IMG/VR virus record: IMGVR_UViG_3300026518_000025
Coordinates: 1 to 39,586 of that record
From: a virus
Taxonomy: Duplodnaviria; Caudoviricetes
Direction: 5' to 3' (one strand)
DNA: 39,586 nucleotides
Position numbers and translations under genes: made by a program. Positions 1 through 39,586 of this stretch are shown one piece after another. The notes below the pieces were generated by a model that worked only from the letters and a program-made list of their open reading frames with translations, ran no database searches and had not been told where the DNA came from. How positions within the stretch are numbered: position 1 is the first letter of the stretch; each line of letters opens with the position of its first letter.

Positions 1-127
1 TGTATGCATTGAAGGTCTTGTATAAATCATTTCAGCGCGTCTAGAAGATGGATTTTTACTTAACTCATTAACAACATTTTCATATTGATTTCCATTGTCA
101 GGTGAAAATATCATCCAACCATAATTT
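1..127. repeat. Terminal direct repeat, left copy (circular assembly overlap)
   Basis: Bases 1-127 are identical to 39460-39586 and a reading frame continues in frame across the join. Confidence 0.97.
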
Positions 128-393
128 GAATTAATAAAACCATCTTTGTCAGATATTTGTTTCCAAATAGTAGGTGTATCTTTAAGATCAAAAACGTTTA
201 ACGATTGAGAATTATACCAAGCAATCTCTCGTTTAATGTAATCATTATTTGGTGTTCCAAAGATAGCAGCTTCATCAGCAATAAAAGATGATCCAATAAG
301 TTCAATCATTTTTACACCACTTTTATCAATAATAAAATCTTCATTTTTTAACATATCAATTAATTGATTTCTAATATCTTTAACGTTGAACAC
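1..393 (-). CDS. dCMP hydroxymethylase (T4 gp42-like, thymidylate synthase fold), 5' part; the full 214-aa gene continues at 39459..39208
   Basis: GTG at 393 follows RBS AAAGGAG. Manual translation MFNVKDIRNQL...DKSGVKMIELIGSSFIADE...YIKREIAWY...INSNYGW closely parallels T4 gp42 as recalled (DKTGVKTIEIIGASFVADE...INSNYGW). Missed by the ORF track because it crosses the contig end. Confidence 0.9.
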   Translation of the reverse strand, partial: MFNVKDIRNQLIDMLKNEDFIIDKSGVKMIELIGSSFIADEAAIFGTPNNDYIKREIAWYNSQSLNVFDLKDTPTIWKQISDKDGFINSNYGWMIFSPDNGNQYENVVNELSKNPSSRRAEMIYTRPSMHT

Positions 394-850
394 GTTTCTC
401 TCCTTTACTTTCAAGATCATCAATAATAAATTGAGCAAATTCAATAACATTTTGCCACGGCTTAATTGATGATGGGTTAATTACAGCAGTAAATAGTTCA
501 GTTATAATAGATTCAATAATCGTTTTATAAATTAAAGGTATAATAGATGATTCAATAAAAAAAGGTATAACAGCAGGAATAACTTCTTTATTATTTTCTT
601 TCTCTTGATTAATAATTAATTGAGAATATCCAATAACATCATACCAACTATCTAACCATTTAAAATCACCTACACAAATTCGAGCAAGTTTATGTATAAC
701 CATATCTATTGACTCTTTTTTTGAGTAACTTAATTGAAGCCATCCTTCTGTTTGACGGATTGACTGTTTATAAACTTGTGTAAACTTAGCACCTTCTGAA
801 AACTCACCATGAGTTTCTTGTCTTTCTTCTAATATATCTTTAACTTCCAT
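380..850 (-). CDS. DUF6378-like all-alpha protein (putative nucleotide-metabolism/modification accessory) with a duplicated C-terminal helix pair
   Basis: ILEERQETHGEF...HKLARICVGD...DSWYDVIGYSQL pattern; ATG at 850 after RBS AAGGA and downstream of a promoter. Confidence 0.6.
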   Translation of the reverse strand: MEVKDILEERQETHGEFSEGAKFTQVYKQSIRQTEGWLQLSYSKKESIDMVIHKLARICVGDFKWLDSWYDVIGYSQLIINQEKENNKEVIPAVIPFFIESSIIPLIYKTIIESIITELFTAVINPSSIKPWQNVIEFAQFIIDDLESKGEKRVQR

Positions 851-878: not shown

Positions 879-910
879 ATTATAATCAAACTTTGTTTAA
901 AGATTTATTA
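879..910 (-). promoter_or_regulatory. Class E (early-type) promoter for the nucleotide-modification operon
   Basis: TAATAAATCTTTAAACAAAGTTTGATTATAAT on the minus strand; 866-910 matches 3306-3350 at 43/45 nt. Confidence 0.8.
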
Positions 911-1930
911 AAAGTCCATATCTAATTTTTGTTTAGAGTAATTTTTAACAGTAGCTTCAAAGAAGTTAGCTTTAGTTTCATTAAGTTTACTAAAAGATTT
1001 AAAGATCTTAATTAATCCATCATTCTTATTAGCAACAGGATATTCTTGTTTAAAGCCTAATTCTCTAAATCTATCATTAGCTATCCATTGCATTAAATTC
1101 TCAATAGCTAAATCATTAAAACCCATAACACCTTCAGTTGAATATTTAAGATAGTCTATCTCTCTTTCAGTAGAAGCTATTAATATTTCTTGAGCTTTTA
1201 TATCTTCATTAACTCCAGTATCTTGTTTTATATGATTATAAATATTTACATATAAAGGTAAATGTGAACCAAGCTCGTCTTTACTAATTTCTGTGATCAT
1301 TGAAGCAGATCCAGCCATCTTTGAACCTAAAGACCATATAGTGGCAAAACCACCAGGAAAACTTATACCTTCTAAAGAGAGATTAGCAATAGCAGCTAAT
1401 GATAGTTCACTAAAGGTAGGTTCTTCATCTTTATCAAACATTGAATAGTCAGCATTAATGGATTTTGCTAAAGCCAATAGTTTAGGATCTGTTTTAAAGA
1501 GAGTATAAATCTCTTTACTATCTAAACCAGCTTTCTTAAGAACATCATCGCCTATATAAGCATAAGATGAACTATGCAAAGCTTCTTCAAAACCTTGTCT
1601 AGCTAAAACAGCATTAGCAATAGGATCTGTAATATAAGAGTTGAGGTTATCCATTATGCGATTAGTAATAACAGAATCGTTAAATATTAGTTTACCAAAA
1701 GCAAATTTATAAGCTCTTAATTCAGCAAGTGTTAACTGTTGAACAGCTTTCATGTCACTTGATAGATCTATTTGTGATGGAAACCATGTTCGATCTAACA
1801 TTCCATCCCATATAGTTTTGTATATAACTCTTGATGGATTTGAAAAGTCAGCAATACCATCAGGATTTCCACCTACTATAGGATGAAATTCTTCTATTGA
1901 TTCTGGATTAAATATTAACTTAGGCTTCAT
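908..1930 (-). CDS. nrdB: Ribonucleotide reductase class I beta subunit
   Basis: TWFP motif, FND ligand, EEALHSSSY (E, H ligands and radical Tyr), LEGISF, DELGSH, C-terminal NFFE..V.NY; likely start ATG 1930 (MKPKLIFNP) overlapping the upstream stop. Confidence 0.92.
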   Translation of the reverse strand: MKPKLIFNPESIEEFHPIVGGNPDGIADFSNPSRVIYKTIWDGMLDRTWFPSQIDLSSDMKAVQQLTLAELRAYKFAFGKLIFNDSVITNRIMDNLNSYITDPIANAVLARQGFEEALHSSSYAYIGDDVLKKAGLDSKEIYTLFKTDPKLLALAKSINADYSMFDKDEEPTFSELSLAAIANLSLEGISFPGGFATIWSLGSKMAGSASMITEISKDELGSHLPLYVNIYNHIKQDTGVNEDIKAQEILIASTEREIDYLKYSTEGVMGFNDLAIENLMQWIANDRFRELGFKQEYPVANKNDGLIKIFKSFSKLNETKANFFEATVKNYSKQKLDMDF

Positions 1931-2723
1931 TGTATAACTCCAATTTGATTTTACCTTTACGCGTAATCTTTTTAATTTGCCCCATGTGAACAAGGCGAAT
2001 CATTGTAATCGCATGATCTTTGTCAAAACCTTTATCTATATAAATTTGAACAACTTTCTCTAAAGTTTTATCATCACCTAACAGTTTTAACGCTCTAGGC
2101 GCTTTAATAACAAATTTATGATTAACAAAATCTAGCTTAATTCCTATACCTGGAAGACCTGGTATACCATCTCCACTATCTCCACCTAATGCTTGTAAAC
2201 ATGTAAATTCTAATGCTTCTTTTTTAGATGTTCGTACAAAACATTTATGATAAGTATCGTAATGATAACCAGGTGTACCTTTTAAAACATCTTTATCAGC
2301 ACTAGTTATTGGATGTCCTTTTCTTGCATAATAAGAAACAATATCATCAGCTTCAGCAATATCAGAAATTATACCGAACTTTTTAACAGCCCATTTTTTA
2401 AGTTTATAAAATTCATCAGGCTTATCATCTTTACGCTTATTTTTATATTCAGGGAAAATATCATAACGAAAATTAGTTGATCCTGTAAATACTAAGATAT
2501 GATCTTTAAATTTAGTCATTTCTCCTATAGTACTTTCAACCTCGCATGATGATACAACGTCCCATACTAATGCTTTAAACTGCGCCTTTAATGATTTCAT
2601 ATCTGGTTTAACTACACCAAAATCTTCACCTTCTTGCTCATCAAAATCAGTTCCATTGTTAGATCTTGAAAATATAGTTAGGTAAAGTAAACTGTCAGCG
2701 TCAATATATAATGTTTTACTCAT
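1920..2723 (-). CDS. 5'-3' exonuclease / RNase H (T7 gp6-like, FEN superfamily)
   Basis: YIDADS, NFR, YK..R, EADD, SADKD and GGDSGDGIPGLPGIG (H3TH) motifs. Confidence 0.88.
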   Translation of the reverse strand: MSKTLYIDADSLLYLTIFSRSNNGTDFDEQEGEDFGVVKPDMKSLKAQFKALVWDVVSSCEVESTIGEMTKFKDHILVFTGSTNFRYDIFPEYKNKRKDDKPDEFYKLKKWAVKKFGIISDIAEADDIVSYYARKGHPITSADKDVLKGTPGYHYDTYHKCFVRTSKKEALEFTCLQALGGDSGDGIPGLPGIGIKLDFVNHKFVIKAPRALKLLGDDKTLEKVVQIYIDKGFDKDHAITMIRLVHMGQIKKITRKGKIKLELYNEA

Positions 2724-3318: not shown

Positions 3319-3350
3319 ATTATAATCAAAGTTTGTTTAAAGTTTTATTA
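3319..3350 (-). promoter_or_regulatory. Class E promoter
   Basis: TAATAAAACTTTAAACAAACTTTGATTATAAT on the minus strand. Confidence 0.8.
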
Positions 3351-5237
3351 ACCATATAAATATTTTTTCATTTTGTTTATAGAAGCTGTTGATAGTTTAG
3401 GCATAACTTTCTTATATCCTAATTCTTTAATATAAAGATCTTCAATTGATCCAGCCTTTTCTATAGCTTCAGCAAATACTTCTTCATCAGATAATGCATA
3501 ATTATTATTACAATCTCCAAGCATACGTTTAGCATATTGTATATACCAGTTATAATCTAAATCTTTAGGGATCTTCTTAGTAAGGTCCATCATAGGTTTT
3601 GCTGTATCTGTTAATGGAACTTTAGCATTTCTAGAAACATACCAAATATTTTCACCTTCAGTTGAATAATACCATCTTACAACTTTTCCTAAGTATTCAC
3701 CTTTCCATTTACCACCGCCTGTTACTTTTCTAGCAGACATAAATTGCTTAATATCTTTACATTTTTTAATTGTTTTTTCTAATGGTGTGCCTTTATTAAT
3801 GAACTCTCTAACAGCTTCAAAACATATAGGTGTTTGTGTATTCTTTTGAAGAGAATGCTCACCAAATACACCTTTAGATTTAACATAACCATCATATTTT
3901 GCAACATAGTTAGAAACATCTCTTGCATATAAACCTTGATATTCTCCATGCTCCATTGTATAACCTGTTGCTTTATCTAAATCAGCAATAATTTCTTCAG
4001 CCATATCTACATCTTTTCTACGACAATAATACTCAATTCCATCTGTATTAGCAGAGACAACAGAGATACCATTAGACTCAAACTTTTCAATAAGCATAAG
4101 AAGTGTAAGCTGCCCAGTCATTGTTGTCTGTAGCAATAGCTTAGGTGAATACAGTTTAGAATATTTTGATCCATATTTACCAAAACTACCATTAATTGTA
4201 ATCTTTAAAGAGTCTGCTGTAAGTTTGTCACCATTTTTTTTAGCAGCGATACGAGTCTCAACAATGTTTCTATAAATCTTTAAGAACTTCTTACCAAGAT
4301 GTTCTGGATATAACTTATTATTTAAAATGATATACGGATAATAAGAAGCATAATCTGCATTACGCATAACATATTCATCATCAGATTCAGCAACAAGATT
4401 TTTCTCTTGAGAGTGAAGACCACCAATACCAATTTCATAAGTAGTGTTACCAATCGTAATAGGTTTAAAAGTTTCAGGCTTTTGTGGAGATCCTTTACCA
4501 TCAAGAACAAAAGTAGTCTTCTTAATCATTTTAAATAAATCTTTAAGCTGCTTAGTTTCAAACTTAACATATTTAGGTGGATCATATTTGAATGGCTTCT
4601 GGCTAGGAGCATTATCAACTTTACCGCCAAGTTCTGATACAATTACAGCTTCAGCTATTTGAGCGTCTGATTTAGATCGAAGATCAAGGCCATATTGTTT
4701 AGACATTTTCTCACGTAACTGTATACGATCTTTAGTAGCTTCATATAAATCTCTAGTAACCATAAGGTCGTTTATACAATAACGCTTTAGATTTTCAACT
4801 TCTTTCTTCTTAATAGGTTTATCAAAATCAAGTTCATATTCCCATAATTTTTCTGATCCAAGTCTTGTTCCATACAGTTTAAGACCAACACGAACGCCAG
4901 GAGCTTGTTCCATTAAGTCTATATGATCATAATCCAAGTTACGTTTAATCTTCATCATACGATATAACATGTAAGGCTTAACATTATCTTTAATGATTGC
5001 TTGAGAGGCTTTATACATATTTTCAACAGTTGCACCAGATAATGCATATTCTATAATAGGCATATCATAATTAATTGAGTTAAACCCTACTACTAAGCCC
5101 GCTAAGATCTTTCTAATCTTTTTAACTTGTTTCGGTTTAAAACTATCGAATGTCTCAAATGTTTTAACTTTACCTTTCTCATTCATAAATGCAAATAAAG
5201 CATAATTTGGAAAGATTTCTATATCAAAGATATTCAT
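3348..5237 (-). CDS. Family B DNA polymerase with N-terminal 3'-5' exonuclease
   Basis: ExoI FDIE, ExoII GFNSINYD, ExoIII YCIND; polymerase motifs ADYASYYP, LKITINGSFGK, SANTDG. Confidence 0.93.
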   Translation of the reverse strand: MNIFDIEIFPNYALFAFMNEKGKVKTFETFDSFKPKQVKKIRKILAGLVVGFNSINYDMPIIEYALSGATVENMYKASQAIIKDNVKPYMLYRMMKIKRNLDYDHIDLMEQAPGVRVGLKLYGTRLGSEKLWEYELDFDKPIKKKEVENLKRYCINDLMVTRDLYEATKDRIQLREKMSKQYGLDLRSKSDAQIAEAVIVSELGGKVDNAPSQKPFKYDPPKYVKFETKQLKDLFKMIKKTTFVLDGKGSPQKPETFKPITIGNTTYEIGIGGLHSQEKNLVAESDDEYVMRNADYASYYPYIILNNKLYPEHLGKKFLKIYRNIVETRIAAKKNGDKLTADSLKITINGSFGKYGSKYSKLYSPKLLLQTTMTGQLTLLMLIEKFESNGISVVSANTDGIEYYCRRKDVDMAEEIIADLDKATGYTMEHGEYQGLYARDVSNYVAKYDGYVKSKGVFGEHSLQKNTQTPICFEAVREFINKGTPLEKTIKKCKDIKQFMSARKVTGGGKWKGEYLGKVVRWYYSTEGENIWYVSRNAKVPLTDTAKPMMDLTKKIPKDLDYNWYIQYAKRMLGDCNNNYALSDEEVFAEAIEKAGSIEDLYIKELGYKKVMPKLSTASINKMKKYLYG

Positions 5238-5755
5238 TTTAACAACTTTTTATATAGTTTACGAGTTGCTTTAATATCTGACATTGCTTCATGAGCATTA
5301 TGTTTAATTTTGAAATGTTCACATGCTTCAACCAATTTCATTCCACCATCATATAAACCTTGTTGTCTTGCTATTTTTAAAAATGCAAAAACATCACAAT
5401 CGTAATAATGAAAGAATCTTTTAAAGTCAATGAATTTAGAAAAGAATTTAATATCAAATTTGATGTTATATCCAGCAATTGTTAACTTTTCACCTTTAAT
5501 AGAATGTTTGTTAAGAAAAGCAAATAATTCTTTATGAACATCATCTTTACTTGGAAAAGAATCGATTTTCTTTTTAGTAAGTTTATTCACTTCTAAAGCA
5601 TATTGACTAAATTTAACTTTACCTGGATTCATCTTACTTTCAAACTTATCTATAATATCACCATCTTCTTCAACTAAAATTGCTATTTGAACAATTCCAT
5701 TATCATCTACATTTAAACCTGTAGTTTCTAAATCTAACCATATTGTCTTTTCCAT
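5234..5755 (-). CDS. DnaQ-like DEDDh 3'-5' exonuclease
   Basis: WLDLETTG, AGYNIKFD, AHEAMSDI motifs. Confidence 0.92.
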   Translation of the reverse strand: MEKTIWLDLETTGLNVDDNGIVQIAILVEEDGDIIDKFESKMNPGKVKFSQYALEVNKLTKKKIDSFPSKDDVHKELFAFLNKHSIKGEKLTIAGYNIKFDIKFFSKFIDFKRFFHYYDCDVFAFLKIARQQGLYDGGMKLVEACEHFKIKHNAHEAMSDIKATRKLYKKLLK

Positions 5756-5936: not shown

Positions 5937-6551
5937 TTAAGATTTTTTCTTTTTCTTCTTTTTGTCTTTTTTAGGTTTTTCTTCAATACCTGGTTCAAGA
6001 TTGTTATCGAAGTTGTCAAAATCACCTTCTTCATCTTCGTCAAAACCAGAATCTTCAATGTATTCTTCAAACTTAAGGATCTGAATACCATTTAACCATA
6101 ACGTAGCACCATAATCTTTTTTACCAGTATAGATTGTAATCTTACCGGAGATACGACCAACAGATCCGTTACCGATTTTAGTACCTTCAGGAAGTGAAAC
6201 ACGCTCATTTTTATGATTAAATAAGTTAATCTTACGAGTATCACCAGATTCAAAAGTAGTTTGAGTTTTAAAATTAAAGCGAACCATATCTTTAGGAATT
6301 TTTTCACTATCTTTATGAGTACGATAAGGAAGTGAACGAATTTTGTGATTTTTAGAAGGTTTGTTATCTTCTAAGAACTCATCAATTTCAGCAATAAACT
6401 CTTTAGCTTCTTTTTTAGGAACATCAACTGTTGCAACATAATCATAACCATCACCATCATAATTCTCTTTACCTTGTCCCGTAATGTTTACATAAAGTAA
6501 TGAACCTTTAGGACTTGTAACGTAATCGTTCTTTTTAATATGAGTTCCCAT
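5937..6551 (-). CDS. Single-stranded DNA-binding protein (T7 gp2.5 / DUF2815-like)
   Basis: TSPKG..Y, IGNGS, GATLWLNGIQI pattern and acidic GFDEDEEGDF tail; replication context. Confidence 0.8.
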   Translation of the reverse strand: MGTHIKKNDYVTSPKGSLLYVNITGQGKENYDGDGYDYVATVDVPKKEAKEFIAEIDEFLEDNKPSKNHKIRSLPYRTHKDSEKIPKDMVRFNFKTQTTFESGDTRKINLFNHKNERVSLPEGTKIGNGSVGRISGKITIYTGKKDYGATLWLNGIQILKFEEYIEDSGFDEDEEGDFDNFDNNLEPGIEEKPKKDKKKKKKKS

Positions 6552-7090
6552 TATTGAGCCTTTTTAAGAATTTTTTTAGCTTTTTTATAAAGATCTGAAT
6601 CTTTATTTGCTTTAAGAACTTTTTTAGCTTTTTTAAGTTCATCATTTTCAATAAGAATTTCAATCTCTGTTACAAGATCCATCTCAGTTTCTTCTTTAGT
6701 TGAATCTGTATCAACATCTTCAACAGTTTCATCTTCAACAGTATCATCTTCAACAGTATCATCTTCAACAGTATCATCTTCAACAGTATCATCTTCTGTT
6801 TCTTCAGAAGCACCAAAGTAAGCTTCCATTGGAGCATAAAATGTATTTAAGAACTTATCTGTAATACGATTTGTTTCTGTAATAATAGTTTCATCTTCAT
6901 GAAAAACAACATCTTTACCATCACAACCACCAATAACAGCGTCACGGAAATTATATAGTATACCTTTTTCAACACGTTGAGGTAACATTAATGCTAATGC
7001 GTCTTTTTTATCCCATGTTTTCATGAGATCCATACGAGATTTAATAATAAAACCCATTGATTCTTTTGATCTAAATTCTGATTTTGCCAT
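6551..7090 (-). CDS. Hypothetical protein with acidic (E)DDTV repeats and basic C-terminus
   Basis: ORF track 6551..7108; ATG 7090 has an AAGGA RBS; first gene after the leftward class E promoter. Confidence 0.8.
   Translation of the reverse strand: MAKSEFRSKESMGFIIKSRMDLMKTWDKKDALALMLPQRVEKGILYNFRDAVIGGCDGKDVVFHEDETIITETNRITDKFLNTFYAPMEAYFGASEETEDDTVEDDTVEDDTVEDDTVEDETVEDVDTDSTKEETEMDLVTEIEILIENDELKKAKKVLKANKDSDLYKKAKKILKKAQ
6716..6796. repeat. 15-bp tandem repeat, about 5.4 copies (ATCTTCAACAGTATC)
   Basis: Units start at 6716, 6731, 6746, 6761 and 6776, then a partial unit; encodes DDTVE on the minus strand. Confidence 0.95.
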
Positions 7091-7153
7091 TTGGCTTTCC
7101 TTACCCATTCGGGATTTTTGTATTTACAGACGAATAATCGTTTGCATGAGAAA

Positions 7154-13143: not shown

Positions 13144-13244
13144 TTGTTGTTTACTCAATACTGGTTATCGGTGCTATTGCTTCATTAGGTAATTTGATTT
13201 TACAATCTTATTGGTTTTATGTAACTGTTATAAAGGATAAATAA
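13140..13244 (+). CDS. Small membrane peptide, 34 aa
   Basis: MIVVYSILVIGAIASLGNLILQSYWFYVTVIKDK; ATGA and TAATG overlaps with both neighbours. Confidence 0.55.
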   Translation: MIVVYSILVIGAIASLGNLILQSYWFYVTVIKDK

Positions 13245-13816
13245 TGAATGTAACTCTGTTAAACAAACCTACATTAGATTTTACTGATTTAGCAATTGGT
13301 GAATGTTATTCAAAAGGTTGTTATGCTGATCCTGAAAAACGTAAGAAACGTATTCAGAAGGTAGCATTAAAACATAAACATTCTTCAGTATTAGAGTTTA
13401 CTAATTTTATATTTGAGATCGAAGCAAGTACAAAAGTATTGTTAGAAATGACGCGACATCGTTTAGCTTCTTATGCTTGTAAGTCTTCAAGATATACACT
13501 TAACAAAGGTGAGATTGTTTTTGAAAAGACTGGTGATGTTGAAATTGATGAACTTTTAGACAATTGGAAACAGTTAATTGAACATCAAGTTTGGATAGGT
13601 AAATCAAACGAAGTAACTTCGCTTATGTTACCACAAGTATATCAGTATCGTTGGACTGCACAATTCAATGCAAGATCTTTAATGAACTTCTTAGAACTTA
13701 GACGGGCTAAAGCTGCTCATTTTCATATACGTGACGTTGCTGAAGAAATGTTTAATCTTATTCCAGAGGAAATTAGATATGTATTTGAACAATATACAGA
13801 TCCAGATGAATCGTGA
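13244..13816 (+). CDS. thyX: Flavin-dependent thymidylate synthase
   Basis: HSSVLE, RHRLASYACKSSRY (RHR-x7-S signature), NARSLMNFLELR. Confidence 0.93.
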   Translation: MNVTLLNKPTLDFTDLAIGECYSKGCYADPEKRKKRIQKVALKHKHSSVLEFTNFIFEIEASTKVLLEMTRHRLASYACKSSRYTLNKGEIVFEKTGDVEIDELLDNWKQLIEHQVWIGKSNEVTSLMLPQVYQYRWTAQFNARSLMNFLELRRAKAAHFHIRDVAEEMFNLIPEEIRYVFEQYTDPDES

Positions 13817-37295: not shown

Positions 37296-37386
37296 ATCGA
37301 TCCTTATAGTCTTGATCTTGAACATAAATTATAGCAATTAAGACTATAATACCTAGGATTACTCCTAGAATATTTTTTAAATACAT
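37261..37386 (-). CDS. Small membrane peptide, 41 aa
   Basis: MYLKNILGVILGIIVLIAIIYVQD...; TAATG overlap with the dCTPase stop. Confidence 0.55.
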   Translation of the reverse strand: MYLKNILGVILGIIVLIAIIYVQDQDYKDRYDSPTSSRNSF

Positions 37387-37856
37387 TAGTATTTCGTCTT
37401 ATAGCGACGAAGATTTTCTGTATTCTTAGCAGCATACATTCTACCAATTTCAGCAGCATCCATTCTAAGAGCAATAAAAATGTTATTAACAAAATGCATA
37501 ATATCGATTGCTTCATATTTAAGTTCAAGCATTTCATTTTCATTAAGATCTTGCCACTTTTCAGCGCCTAAACTTACATGATCTGACTTCCATTTTTTCC
37601 AAATAGCAGAGTTATTTCCACCGATAGCTTCAATGAGCTCTGTAAACTCATCAGAAATAGCATCTCTGTTATCTCTAAACCATTCTTTTAACTCACCTTT
37701 AGATTCTATCATTGTTGGATCGATGTTGCTTAGAGGTAATCTAGCAGCCAAATCTATTTGTAAATTGCGTTGAAGATCAAGCATATCCTGAAAAGAAAAG
37801 TTCTCTTCAGGTATTTCAAGATCTGCACATTGATTTTCTGGTTGATTAGATTTCAT
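37386..37856 (-). CDS. dCTP/dUTP pyrophosphatase (T4 gp56-like)
   Basis: NQCADL, MLDLQRNLQ, DEFTEL, SAIWKKWK, YEAIDIMHF, KN..N..R, collinear with T4 gp56 as recalled (MLDMQRFLQ, DEFREL, SAVWKKWK, FELVDIFHF). Confidence 0.87.
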   Translation of the reverse strand: MKSNQPENQCADLEIPEENFSFQDMLDLQRNLQIDLAARLPLSNIDPTMIESKGELKEWFRDNRDAISDEFTELIEAIGGNNSAIWKKWKSDHVSLGAEKWQDLNENEMLELKYEAIDIMHFVNNIFIALRMDAAEIGRMYAAKNTENLRRYKTKY

Positions 37857-38749
37857 TATTTACTCCCTTTTTTAAGTTTCCAAATAACATTTCTAGATTG
37901 TTTAGGAAACATTGGTGCCATCAAAATTGATGTAACATTACTATCATAATATTTGCTTAGTTCATTGAAGACATATTGCTGATGTTCATTCATTTCAGAT
38001 TTATAATCTTTCATTGAAGCAAAAGTACCATAAGTTTCTTCAATTTCAAAGCCTGATTTTTTAATAAGTTTTTCCATCTCTTCGTATGTGTACTCGTTTA
38101 CTTCACCATCAACAACATGGTTACCAGCTGCAGCAGTATTATGATCATAAACAGGAGTTGAGATAAGAACAGTAGTATTATCATTACAATGGTTTCTAAG
38201 ATTTTTAAGATACTTTTTACCATTAGAAACTCCAACATGTTCAATAACTTCAAAACTTGTAATAATATCCCAGTCAGTTCCATAATCAACATCATTTACA
38301 AGATCAGCTTGTTTAAAATCAATCCAAGGAACTTTTGCATATTTTTCATTTGCTTTATCAACAGTTCCTTGTTTATACTCAAGACCTAGATATTGTGATT
38401 GTTTGAATTGGTTACGATATAAAACCTCAACAAGATTACCACTACCTGAACCAAAATCTAAAACTTTACCACCAATTTTAGCAAGTTTAAGAACATGTGT
38501 CCATCTAAAATAATGAGCAAATTGATCACGATGAAAGATATGACGCTCAAATGCTTTATCAGGATCTAACTGTGTATTGTTATAAGGCTTAGCTTTAATA
38601 TCAATTTTCTTTTCAGTAAACACCTCATCTTTTGGATATGGTTTATCAGAACATTTAACCCATACTTGATCGCCGTCTATCTTTGTTACCTTAGTTTTCT
38701 TTTGTTGTCCTTTTTTATTAAGAACGTAAACTGTGTCTTTATTTTTCAT
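37856..38749 (-). CDS. Class I SAM-dependent methyltransferase (small-molecule / UbiG-like)
   Basis: VLDFGSGSG motif I, YLGLE motif II, ITSFEVIEHV, ISTP; no PC or (D/N/S)PP(Y/F) DNA-methyltransferase motif. Confidence 0.85.
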   Translation of the reverse strand: MKNKDTVYVLNKKGQQKKTKVTKIDGDQVWVKCSDKPYPKDEVFTEKKIDIKAKPYNNTQLDPDKAFERHIFHRDQFAHYFRWTHVLKLAKIGGKVLDFGSGSGNLVEVLYRNQFKQSQYLGLEYKQGTVDKANEKYAKVPWIDFKQADLVNDVDYGTDWDIITSFEVIEHVGVSNGKKYLKNLRNHCNDNTTVLISTPVYDHNTAAAGNHVVDGEVNEYTYEEMEKLIKKSGFEIEETYGTFASMKDYKSEMNEHQQYVFNELSKYYDSNVTSILMAPMFPKQSRNVIWKLKKGSK

Positions 38750-39206
38750 TATGTTTCTCCATTTTAATTTTACATTTTTCTAAGTATTCAATACCACCAT
38801 CATCTCTATAAACTTCGTTATAAACAACTCTCTTAATACCACAAGAAGCAATAAGTTTTGCACATGTTTTACATGGACTTAATGTCAAATATAATGTAGC
38901 ACCTTCAAGAGGTATTCCATTTCTTGCGCAATAAGATATTGCATTTTGTTCAGCATGCAAAACAAATTCAGAAGTTACGTAACCTTTATTTTGACAAGTA
39001 TTGCAACCAAGGCCTATACCATGACAATCTGGACATTCTTCTTCACATTCATTAGATAATCCAGGTAATGTTCCATTGTAACCATTAGCTATGATTCTGT
39101 TATCCTTAGCTATAACACAGCCAACTTTATTACGTTTAGCATGAGATAACTGTGCAAATGCTGCAGAAGTTATTATCATGGCTTTATCAAATTTTAATTG
39201 TTTCAT
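38739..39206 (-). CDS. dCMP deaminase
   Basis: VGCVI, GYNG, HAEQNAI, SPCKTCAK. Confidence 0.93.
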   Translation of the reverse strand: MKQLKFDKAMIITSAAFAQLSHAKRNKVGCVIAKDNRIIANGYNGTLPGLSNECEEECPDCHGIGLGCNTCQNKGYVTSEFVLHAEQNAISYCARNGIPLEGATLYLTLSPCKTCAKLIASCGIKRVVYNEVYRDDGGIEYLEKCKIKMEKHNEK

Positions 39207-39207
39207 C

Positions 39208-39586
39208 TTATTTTACCAACTTGAAATGTTTTTCATATACGTGAAGACTTGACGCTTGCCAAATAATATCACCAACAGGAATTCCTAAATCTGATGATAA
39301 ATAATTAAGTACATATTTTTGCCATGCATAATCATTTTTAAATCCAAAAACAACATCGTTAGATCTCATTTTAACAACAGCATTAAGTTTGTCATCTCTT
39401 ATGAAATAATCAACGCCCAACGTGCAACAGAAGTCACTCATACCATTTACATAATAATCTGTATGCATTGAAGGTCTTGTATAAATCATTTCAGCGCGTC
39501 TAGAAGATGGATTTTTACTTAACTCATTAACAACATTTTCATATTGATTTCCATTGTCAGGTGAAAATATCATCCAACCATAATTT
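39208..39586 (-). CDS. dCMP hydroxymethylase (T4 gp42-like), 3' part of the junction-spanning gene
   Basis: SRR..MIYTRPSM, MSDFCCT (catalytic Cys), MRSNDVVFGFKNDYAWQKYVL (Asp at the dCMP-specificity position), SLHVY. Confidence 0.9.
   Translation of the reverse strand, partial: NYGWMIFSPDNGNQYENVVNELSKNPSSRRAEMIYTRPSMHTDYYVNGMSDFCCTLGVDYFIRDDKLNAVVKMRSNDVVFGFKNDYAWQKYVLNYLSSDLGIPVGDIIWQASSLHVYEKHFKLVK
39460..39586. repeat. Terminal direct repeat, right copy
   Basis: Identical to 1-127. Confidence 0.97.

What the first reader, a model, noticed from the sequence alone, without database searches (positions are those of the whole stretch)
37386..39586. Candidate new cytosine-hypermodification system: gp42-type hydroxymethylase + gp56-type dCTPase + dCMP deaminase + small-molecule SAM methyltransferase, no glucosyltransferase
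Seen: after joining the ends, the promoter at 879-910 precedes five tightly coupled genes: DUF6378-like (380-850), a 214-aa TS-fold enzyme (393..1 + 39459..39208), dCMP deaminase, a class I methyltransferase and a dCTPase. Known: T4 replaces C with hmC using gp42 (Glu60, Cys148, Asp179) and gp56, then glucosylates it. All three gp42 residues have counterparts here (KREIAWY, DFCCT, FKNDYAW). Seen: no glycosyltransferase is recognisable, and the embedded methyltransferase has a UbiG-like FEVIEHV motif without DNA-methyltransferase catalytic motifs. Inference: this small myovirus makes hmdC and may cap it by methylation (for example 5-methoxymethyl-C) at the nucleotide or DNA level, as an anti-restriction strategy. 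I know of no description of that base in a phage, but could not search the literature.
Basis: partly seen in the sequence, partly recalled or inferred. Interest (0 to 1): 0.9.

Follow-up and report, generated by a model that had tools for sequence, protein, structure and literature searches.

The report
Phage methyl-capped hydroxymethylcytosine module
A complete 39-kb uncultured phage genome carries T4-like genes predicted to put 5-hydroxymethylcytosine into its DNA, plus a mostly viral methyltransferase that sits beside such genes in many unrelated phages and likely caps the base with a methyl group, which would be a natural DNA base I found no report of.

Summary
Observation confirmed. Joining the 127-bp overlapping ends gives a five-gene minus-strand cluster: DUF6378, a 214-aa enzyme 58% identical to T4 gp42 with every residue diagnostic of dCMP hydroxymethylase, dCMP deaminase, a class I SAM methyltransferase and a gp56-like dCTPase. 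ThyX lies elsewhere; no glycosyltransferase or dNMP kinase was found. The methyltransferase family (732 hits) lies near a hydroxymethylase in 90 of 96 loci, all 90 with the dCMP-hydroxymethylase signature, and pairs with very different hydroxymethylase lineages. Glycosyltransferase profiles hit 0 of 175 of its loci; 0 of 78 close hydroxymethylase loci found the other way round carry it. It has an invariant ExxEH…H motif like the metal-dependent O-methyltransferase Hen1. Best reading: hmC is made and methyl-capped, most likely to 5-methoxymethylcytosine (about 55%); substrate and product are untested. The cultured phage AXL3 carries the module and has DNA resistant to G/C-site restriction enzymes, so the claim can be tested directly by mass spectrometry. 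This scan reported the same module before in at least four other genomes.

The parts
879..884 (-). TATAAT hexamer 29 nt upstream of the first gene; possible -10 element, not called by the scan
   Evidence: sequence; scan negative
380..850 (-). DUF6378-domain protein, 156 aa, function unknown; recurs beside the module and is fused to the hydroxymethylase in L050
1..393 (-). 5' part of the dCMP hydroxymethylase gene (GTG start at 393)
39208..39459 (-). 3' part of the dCMP hydroxymethylase gene (39460-39586 repeats 1-127); whole protein 214 aa, 57.7% identical to T4 gp42, E60/D145/C148/D171/D179 equivalents present
38739..39206 (-). dCMP deaminase, 155 aa; predicted to feed dUMP to ThyX
37856..38749 (-). 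Class I SAM methyltransferase, 297 aa: about 50-aa lineage-specific basic beta-rich N-terminus plus conserved domain with invariant HRD..H..R, ExxEH (E167, E170, H171), NH (N210, H211), E219, RN..W
37386..37856 (-). gp56-like dCTP/dUTP pyrophosphatase, 156 aa
13244..13816 (+). ThyX flavin-dependent thymidylate synthase; supplies dTMP, so the TS-fold enzyme is not needed for it
   Evidence: PF02511, E 1.9e-30
3348..5755 (-). Phage's own DNA polymerase (629 aa) and separate proofreading exonuclease (173 aa); predicted to incorporate the modified dNTP

Best explanation
The phage is predicted to replace cytosine in its DNA with 5-hydroxymethylcytosine, and its methyltransferase likely caps the hydroxyl with a methyl group to give 5-methoxymethylcytosine, which would shield the DNA from host nucleases in place of T4's sugar coat. 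Steps: the gp56-like enzyme would break dCTP down to dCMP; the gp42-like enzyme would turn dCMP into hmdCMP (about 93% likely); deaminase plus ThyX would supply dTMP; a kinase, here presumably the host's or unrecognised, would make the triphosphate; the phage polymerase would incorporate it. The methyltransferase would use SAM and a divalent metal held by E167, E170, H171 and H211 to activate the CH2OH oxygen (inferred from Hen1). That it acts on an hmC-derived substrate is about 80% likely; that the product is the O-methyl ether about 55% overall. I lean to the free nucleotide as substrate (small-molecule fold, median pI 5.9, one kinase-methyltransferase fusion), but DNA is open. Shown: genes, residues, linkage. 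Inferred: every activity.
For: Hydroxymethylase: 57.7% identity to T4 gp42 against 26% to a Mosigvirus enzyme; E60, D145, C148, D171, D179 all matched, which by the rules in PMC13326640 (passages) means dCMP substrate, hydroxymethyl product, not a 5-hydroxy-dCMP synthase. Linkage: 90 of 96 methyltransferase loci (22 of 28 groups at 70% identity) hold a TS homologue, all 90 with D145/C148/D171/D179; in a partly overlapping metagenome set 65 of 79, and 33 of 33 with at least 2.5 kb on both sides. All 4 distinct GenBank phages with the gene have the partner within 1.6 kb, while 1551 of 50,697 records match the hydroxymethylase half at all. The pairing follows function, not ancestry: identities of the two genes barely correlate (Spearman 0.15, 22 groups) and paired enzymes interleave with unpaired ones in the tree. 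Alternative caps look mutually exclusive: alpha-glucosyltransferase-like and GT10-like profiles hit 16 and 8 of 78 hydroxymethylase-first loci and 0 of 175 methyltransferase loci; the methyltransferase is in 0 of those 78. The neighbours (TS, MazG-like, dCMP deaminase) are those of the proven hmC O-carbamoyltransferase (PMC8670742, passages). Best solved-sequence hits are O-methyltransferases Hen1 and UbiG through ExxEH; these residues are Hen1 metal ligands (PMC10781085, passages) and invariant in 95-96 of 96. AXL3 DNA resists all 35 G/C-site enzymes tested and is cut by the 2 A/T-site ones (PMC7504290, passages).
Against: No activity, product or modified DNA has been measured. The fold search gives only generic class I matches (Z 19.7-17.2 over 50 rows, O-, N- and C-methyltransferases mixed; Hen1 rank 47), so the methylated atom is not fixed. 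The fourth Hen1 ligand match (H211) is by eye; HMMER aligns that loop in a shifted register. No dNMP kinase is recognisable in this genome, and a kinase profile hits only 14 of 28 groups. In two loci with full flanks the partner is not adjacent: about 14 kb away in L038's genome and about 58 kb in L101's. AXL3's resistance is also what plain hmC gives (T4gt resists 81.9% of enzymes; PMC7653180). Three sites that hmC blocks in vitro (GCATC, CTCAG, CAGTG) are still strongly avoided in this genome. One L038 neighbour has a weak, below-cut-off Glyco_transf_4 hit (E 0.0055). Methyltransf_23 was not significantly enriched in the cytosine-modified contigs of PMC8670742 after correction (27 against 1436, corrected p 1), though that Pfam is very broad.
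Confidence: 0.55

Rival explanations
1. The methyltransferase acts on hmC nucleotide or DNA but makes another product: N4-methyl-hmC (same formula as the O-methyl ether) or a different SAM-derived group on the oxygen, as some class I folds transfer carboxymethyl or aminocarboxypropyl groups (recalled).
For: Same linkage data. Fold hits include N-methyltransferases and non-methylating class I enzymes at tied scores.
Against: Best sequence hits are O-methyltransferases with ExxEH; no N4/N6 DNA methyltransferase family is hit; known hmC caps in the papers read all use the hydroxyl.
Confidence: 0.2
2. The DNA holds plain hmC, and the methyltransferase supports the pathway from outside: it methylates a protein, an RNA end (Hen1-like 2'-O-methylation), a cofactor, or a host defence that attacks hmC DNA.
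For: Hen1 and UbiG both act on vicinal diols at a metal (Hen1; UbiG recalled), which a ribose end offers better than hmC. Two genomes keep the genes apart. AXL3 data fit plain hmC.
Against: Does not easily explain why the gene is absent from 78 of 78 related hydroxymethylase loci and never seen with a glycosyltransferase, nor its fusion to a dNMP kinase in L063. Far below the Hen1 family cut-off (26 against 340 bits).
Confidence: 0.17
3. The module modifies thymine positions or makes another C5 group: deaminase turns hmdCMP into hmdUMP for methylation, or the TS-fold enzyme makes 5-methyl- or 5-hydroxy-dCMP.
For: A dCMP deaminase is in the operon; TS homologues have proved unexpected hydroxylases (PMC13326640).
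Against: D145, D171 and D179 exclude the known methylase, hydroxylase and dUMP signatures in 90 of 90 partners; the deaminase cluster is in only 11 of 28 groups; ThyX is present; AXL3 DNA is cut by A/T-only enzymes.
Confidence: 0.06
4. The linkage is incidental: a moron riding in nucleotide-metabolism operons.
For: Phage nucleotide genes cluster generally; loci are not fully independent (29 belong to one gut-phage-like group).
Against: Holds across 22 groups at 26-63% identity, GC 22-63%, with partners only 17-50% alike, and never with an Asn-type thymidylate synthase in the fetched loci.
Confidence: 0.02

Closest known systems
T4 glucosyl-hmC pathway (gp56, gp42, cd, gp1, alpha/beta-glucosyltransferase)
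   Same: gp42-like hydroxymethylase (57.7%), gp56-like dCTPase (36%), dCMP deaminase, own polymerase.
   Different: No glycosyltransferase, no recognisable dNMP kinase, ThyX instead of ThyA, 39-kb genome, and a SAM methyltransferase in the operon.
5-hydroxymethylcytosine O-carbamoyltransferase module (PMC8670742)
   Same: Non-sugar cap on the hmC hydroxyl; same neighbour families (TS, MazG-like PRA-PH, dCMP deaminase); acts on both hmdCTP and single-stranded DNA (passages).
   Different: Capping enzyme there is a TobZ-like carbamoyltransferase with a proven product; here a class I methyltransferase with an untested one.
Arabinosyl/hexosyl 5-hydroxycytosine pathway of RB69, DLP3, RL38JI (PMC13326640)
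   Same: dCMP-specific TS homologue followed by O-capping.
   Different: Those enzymes carry D169N; this one has Asp and is 26% identical to the Mosigvirus enzyme.
Hen1 RNA 2'-O-methyltransferase (and UbiG)
   Same: Class I fold, ExxEH motif, probable fourth His; best solved-sequence hit.
   Different: 22% identity, not singled out by structure, far under the family cut-off, own conserved N- and C-terminal elements, no Pnkp partner seen.
Stenotrophomonas phage AXL3 gp27-gp31 (and Pseudoxanthomonas phage PW916)
   Same: Same methyltransferase family (26%), Asp-type TS homologue, pyrophosphatase, deaminase, ThyX, no annotated glycosyltransferase among 65 genes; restriction-resistant DNA.
   Different: Siphovirus with 63% GC, distant hydroxymethylase subfamily, a dNMP kinase; the paper read the cluster as dTMP synthesis and left the base unknown.

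Membership tests
T4 gp42-type dCMP hydroxymethylase | Asp at ThyA N177 / gp42 D179 (dCMP specificity) | tested here: met
   rule from PMC13326640
T4 gp42-type dCMP hydroxymethylase | Acidic residue at ThyA L143 / gp42 D145, plus catalytic Cys148 and Glu60 | tested here: met
T4 gp42-type dCMP hydroxymethylase | Closest solved relative is gp42 | tested here: met
   E 4.4e-45 to 1b49 against 1e-10 for the next family
T4 gp42-type dCMP hydroxymethylase | Makes hmdCMP from dCMP and methylene-THF | not testable with these tools
   needs assay
5-hydroxy-dCMP synthase (RB69/DLP3 type) | D169N substitution | tested here: not met
   Asp in the window and in 90 of 90 partners; Asn in the Mosigvirus control
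ThyA or dUMP hydroxymethylase | Asn at position 177 | tested here: not met
T4 glucosyl-hmC system | DNA glycosyltransferase encoded | tested here: not met
   a wholly novel small transferase among unassigned ORFs cannot be excluded
T4 glucosyl-hmC system | Phage dNMP kinase (gp1) | tested here: not met
   no hit or with a kinase profile from related loci
T4 gp56-type dCTPase | Sequence homology over the whole length | tested here: met
   36% over 148 aa, E 5e-33
DNA C5 or N4/N6 methyltransferases | Match to DNA_methylase or N6_N4_Mtase profiles and their catalytic motifs | tested here: not met
   no such family among Pfam, PHROGs or NCBIfam hits
Hen1 RNA 2'-O-methyltransferase | ExxEH metal ligands | tested here: met
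   aligned; invariant in 95 of 96, one locus truncated
Hen1 RNA 2'-O-methyltransferase | Fourth His ligand (H860) | tested here: inconclusive
   NH-x-x-E matches DH-x-x-E by eye in the short-loop members; HMMER register is shifted; model coordinates not inspected
Hen1 RNA 2'-O-methyltransferase | Family score over cut-off | tested here: not met
   26.2 bits against 340
hmC hypermodification systems (capping of the hmC hydroxyl) | Capped hmC present in virion DNA | not testable with these tools
   needs LC-MS

The most novel reading that the evidence does not exclude
A widespread phage family of Hen1-like, metal-dependent O-methyltransferases converts hydroxymethyl-dC nucleotides to 5-methoxymethyl-dC, a new natural DNA letter that fully replaces cytosine in hundreds of small phages from gut, freshwater and marine habitats and is the unknown modification of AXL3: a third way, after sugars and carbamoyl, to hide hmC.
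Probability: 0.5. Interest if true: 0.85.

Novelty: new variant of a known kind. Interest (0 to 1): 0.7.

Why it matters
It would add a new natural DNA base and a new enzyme activity (hmC O-methyltransferase), show how small phages protect hmC from modification-dependent nucleases without sugar metabolism, and explain the unexplained restriction resistance of AXL3. An enzyme that alkylates hmC selectively with SAM or SAM analogues would also be a candidate tool for mapping hmC in eukaryotic genomes. The claim is cheap to test because a cultured carrier and commercial hmC substrates exist.

Tried and rejected
Assembly artefact at the joint: rejected, exact 127-bp overlap and intact relatives. 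ThyA, hmdU or 5-hydroxy-C readings: rejected by residues. Fold searches gave no specific relative; a family not listed is not excluded. No match in plasmids. The PADLOC hit to mad2 is taken as generic class I similarity. Restriction-site avoidance as independent evidence for C modification: 3 of 5 scorable sites whose enzymes fully cut hmC DNA are avoided (GATATC 1 against 20 expected, CATATG 0 against 11, GGATG 20 against 49) against 3 of 44 blocked sites, Fisher p 0.01 (status from PMC7653180 Table S1); but the idea came after seeing the counts, sites with under 7 expected were dropped, and 43 kb of three relatives avoid only GATATC (0 against 16, p 0.10), so it is only suggestive. AXL3 against T4gt: PdmI has 21 sites in AXL3 and did not cut, while its isoschizomer XmnI partly cuts hmC DNA and not glucosyl-hmC DNA; a hint of a cap, but different enzymes and conditions. 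I first grouped phrog_14998 with glycosyltransferases; it is of unknown function and is not counted. Host: ThyX's best phage hits are Campylobacter phages at 31-37%, too weak to assign. The careful tree did not finish; the quick tree is quoted. The wide profile search never ran, so the nearest cellular relatives of the methyltransferase are known only from the Atlas listing. Iyer et al. 2013 on predicted DNA-modification systems was not held and may mention this family. No complex prediction was sent because no binding is claimed.
Full report
Observation. The window is a complete circular phage genome: its ends share 127 identical bases and the record is classed as complete with direct terminal repeats. 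It encodes a tail sheath, head and baseplate genes, its own polymerase, primase and helicases, so 'small myovirus' stands. Across the joint, five minus-strand genes abut or overlap: a DUF6378 protein, a 214-aa thymidylate-synthase-fold enzyme, dCMP deaminase, a 297-aa class I methyltransferase and a pyrophosphatase 36% identical to T4 gp56. A TATAAT lies at 884-879, but the promoter scan did not call it.

The hydroxymethylase. The joined protein is 57.7% identical to T4 gp42 and 26% to a Mosigvirus homologue, and matches gp42 at E60, D145, C148, D171 and D179. PMC13326640 (passages seen) gives the rules: Asp at ThyA 177 selects dCMP, an acid at 143 goes with hydroxymethyl rather than methyl, and D169N marks the 5-hydroxy-dCMP synthases. 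All three point to hmdCMP. A separate ThyX at 13244-13816 covers dTMP. This step is as firm as sequence allows.

The methyltransferase family. It has 732 relatives at E 0.001 or better among 1451 candidates; the six best Atlas clusters are 95-100% viral, the next four mostly bacterial; there is none in plasmids. The AlphaFold model (pLDDT 91.7) is a small-molecule-type class I fold whose 50 best matches are near-tied and of mixed chemistry. By sequence profile the best solved hits are Hen1, then UbiG, through an ExxEH motif. In Hen1 these residues and a later His bind the catalytic metal (PMC10781085, passages). E167, E170, H171 and H211 are invariant in 95-96 of 96 members, the one gap being a truncated locus. 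The protein is not a Hen1 (26 bits against a cut-off of 340) and hits no DNA methyltransferase family.

Linkage. I examined 96 loci: 4 GenBank phages, the best 80 of 421 viral hits, one further viral locus and 11 genome contigs (six duplicate loci dropped). A TS homologue lies in the fetched stretch in 90, mostly within 3.2 kb, and all 90 have D145, C148, D171 and D179. At 70% identity the loci form 28 groups, 22 with the partner. Of the six misses, four end within 1.6 kb downstream; the other two have an Asp-type homologue about 14 kb away in the same virus record and about 58 kb away, probably on the same contig. In 79 metagenome loci, partly the same contigs, 65 hold the partner, including 33 of 33 with 2.5 kb on both sides; 63 have the full signature and two are cut off. 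The partner changes freely: identities of the two genes correlate weakly (Spearman 0.15, p 0.027, 22 groups), and the window's closest methyltransferase groups (57-59%) include partners only 24-33% like its own. In a quick tree of 55 proteins, paired and unpaired hydroxymethylases interleave (5 changes, 2 forced by starred branches). Other neighbours vary in fold but not in job: trimeric dUTPase, MazG-like or all-alpha pyrophosphatases, dNMP kinases, deaminase, ThyX, DUF6378 and DUF1599 (105 of 325 neighbours scanned). L063 fuses a dNMP-kinase-like domain to the methyltransferase.

The reverse test. Searching with hydroxymethylases gave 80 loci from a scan that stopped at 13 of 64 parts; two were the window's own relatives and were set aside. 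None of the other 78 has the methyltransferase within 8 kb, nor do 5 of the longest contigs searched whole, all incomplete. Sixteen carry an alpha-glucosyltransferase-like gene, 8 a weakly GT10-like gene and one a beta-glucosyltransferase relative; these profiles hit 0 of 175 methyltransferase loci. PF00534 is absent from this genome and from 5 of 5 other carrier records. One neighbour in L038 has a weak Glyco_transf_4 hit under the cut-off. The methyltransferase therefore behaves as one of several alternative occupants of the hmC-capping slot, as the O-carbamoyltransferase of PMC8670742 does (passages and supplementary table rows).

A cultured carrier. Stenotrophomonas phage AXL3 has the module. 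Its DNA was cut by only 2 of 37 enzymes, both with A/T-only sites, and the base was left unknown (PMC7504290, passages). This shows that a carrier modifies G/C pairs, but plain hmC would do much the same (PMC7653180, passages and first part of the supplementary table).

Gaps and contrary points. No dNMP kinase is recognisable here, and a kinase profile hits 33 of 96 loci, 14 of 28 groups, so a host kinase or DUF6378-like proteins would have to serve. Three sites that hmC blocks in vitro are still avoided in this genome, which could mean partial substitution or tolerant host systems. The methylated atom and the level (nucleotide or DNA) are not fixed by any result.

What is known. Searches for the base or activity found nothing relevant: methoxymethyl + phage + cytosine (1 unrelated paper), 5-methoxymethyl + deoxycytidine (1 review of synthetic analogues, listing only), dCMP hydroxymethylase + methyltransferase + hypermodif (2), a five-term search (23 listed), O-methyltransferase + 5-hydroxymethylcytosine + phage (0). 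PMC8056088 and PMC8989533 (passages) do not mention it in the passages seen. Most subscription journals and Iyer et al. 2013 were out of reach. Earlier notes of this scan describe the same module in at least four other genomes; they agree but are not independent evidence. Added here: the cultured test case, the residue rules applied to all partners, the reverse test and the Hen1-type motif.

Verdict. A real, conserved and widespread phage module: hmC synthesis near-certain, a dedicated methyltransferase acting on it likely, 5-methoxymethylcytosine the best single guess at about 55%. New variant of hmC hypermodification; interest 0.7.

Noticed in passing
whole window: Strong avoidance of GATGC/GCATC (8 against 44 expected), CTCAG (6 against 38), CACTG/CAGTG (2 against 23), GGATG (20 against 49), GATATC (1 against 20) and CATATG (0 against 11); only GATATC avoidance clearly recurs in three relatives. 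Likely marks host restriction or BREX-type sites.
   Followed up: partly
window 908-1993 (-): Ribonucleotide reductase small subunit with no large subunit gene in the genome; best cultured-phage hits only about 30% identical.
   Followed up: partly
window 3348-5755 (-): DNA polymerase (related at 42-43% to B-family enzymes of 9g-like phages) with a separate upstream DEDD exonuclease gene.
   Followed up: partly
L063 6356-7807 (+): Natural fusion of a dNMP-kinase-like P-loop domain to the methyltransferase, next to a UDG-like gene; L017 7731-8642 fuses a kinase to a UDG-like domain.
   Followed up: partly
L107-L184, e.g. L184 1943-3229: A divergent C5 DNA-methyltransferase-like gene is in 35 of 78 hydroxymethylase loci that lack this methyltransferase; unassigned 340-410 aa families (L120 10136-11377 in 20 loci, L146 7039-8073 in 9, phrog_14998 in 8) and a PLP enzyme (15) may be further hmC-capping enzymes.
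   Followed up: no
L020 8937-10869 (+): Amidoligase_2 and glutamine amidotransferase genes directly follow the methyltransferase-hydroxymethylase-deaminase block; may add a further modification.
   Followed up: no
window 38600-38749 (-): The first 50 residues of the methyltransferase form a basic (pI 9.4) beta-rich segment found only in this phage lineage and weakly in P0003; possible nucleic-acid-binding add-on.
   Followed up: partly
L012-L014: In close relatives the SNF2 helicase and VRR-NUC genes lie upstream of the module rather than downstream, and DNA upstream differs, so the block order has been shuffled.
   Followed up: no
window 6551-7108 (-): 185-aa unassigned protein with a tandem acidic repeat (DDTVE x5).
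   Followed up: no
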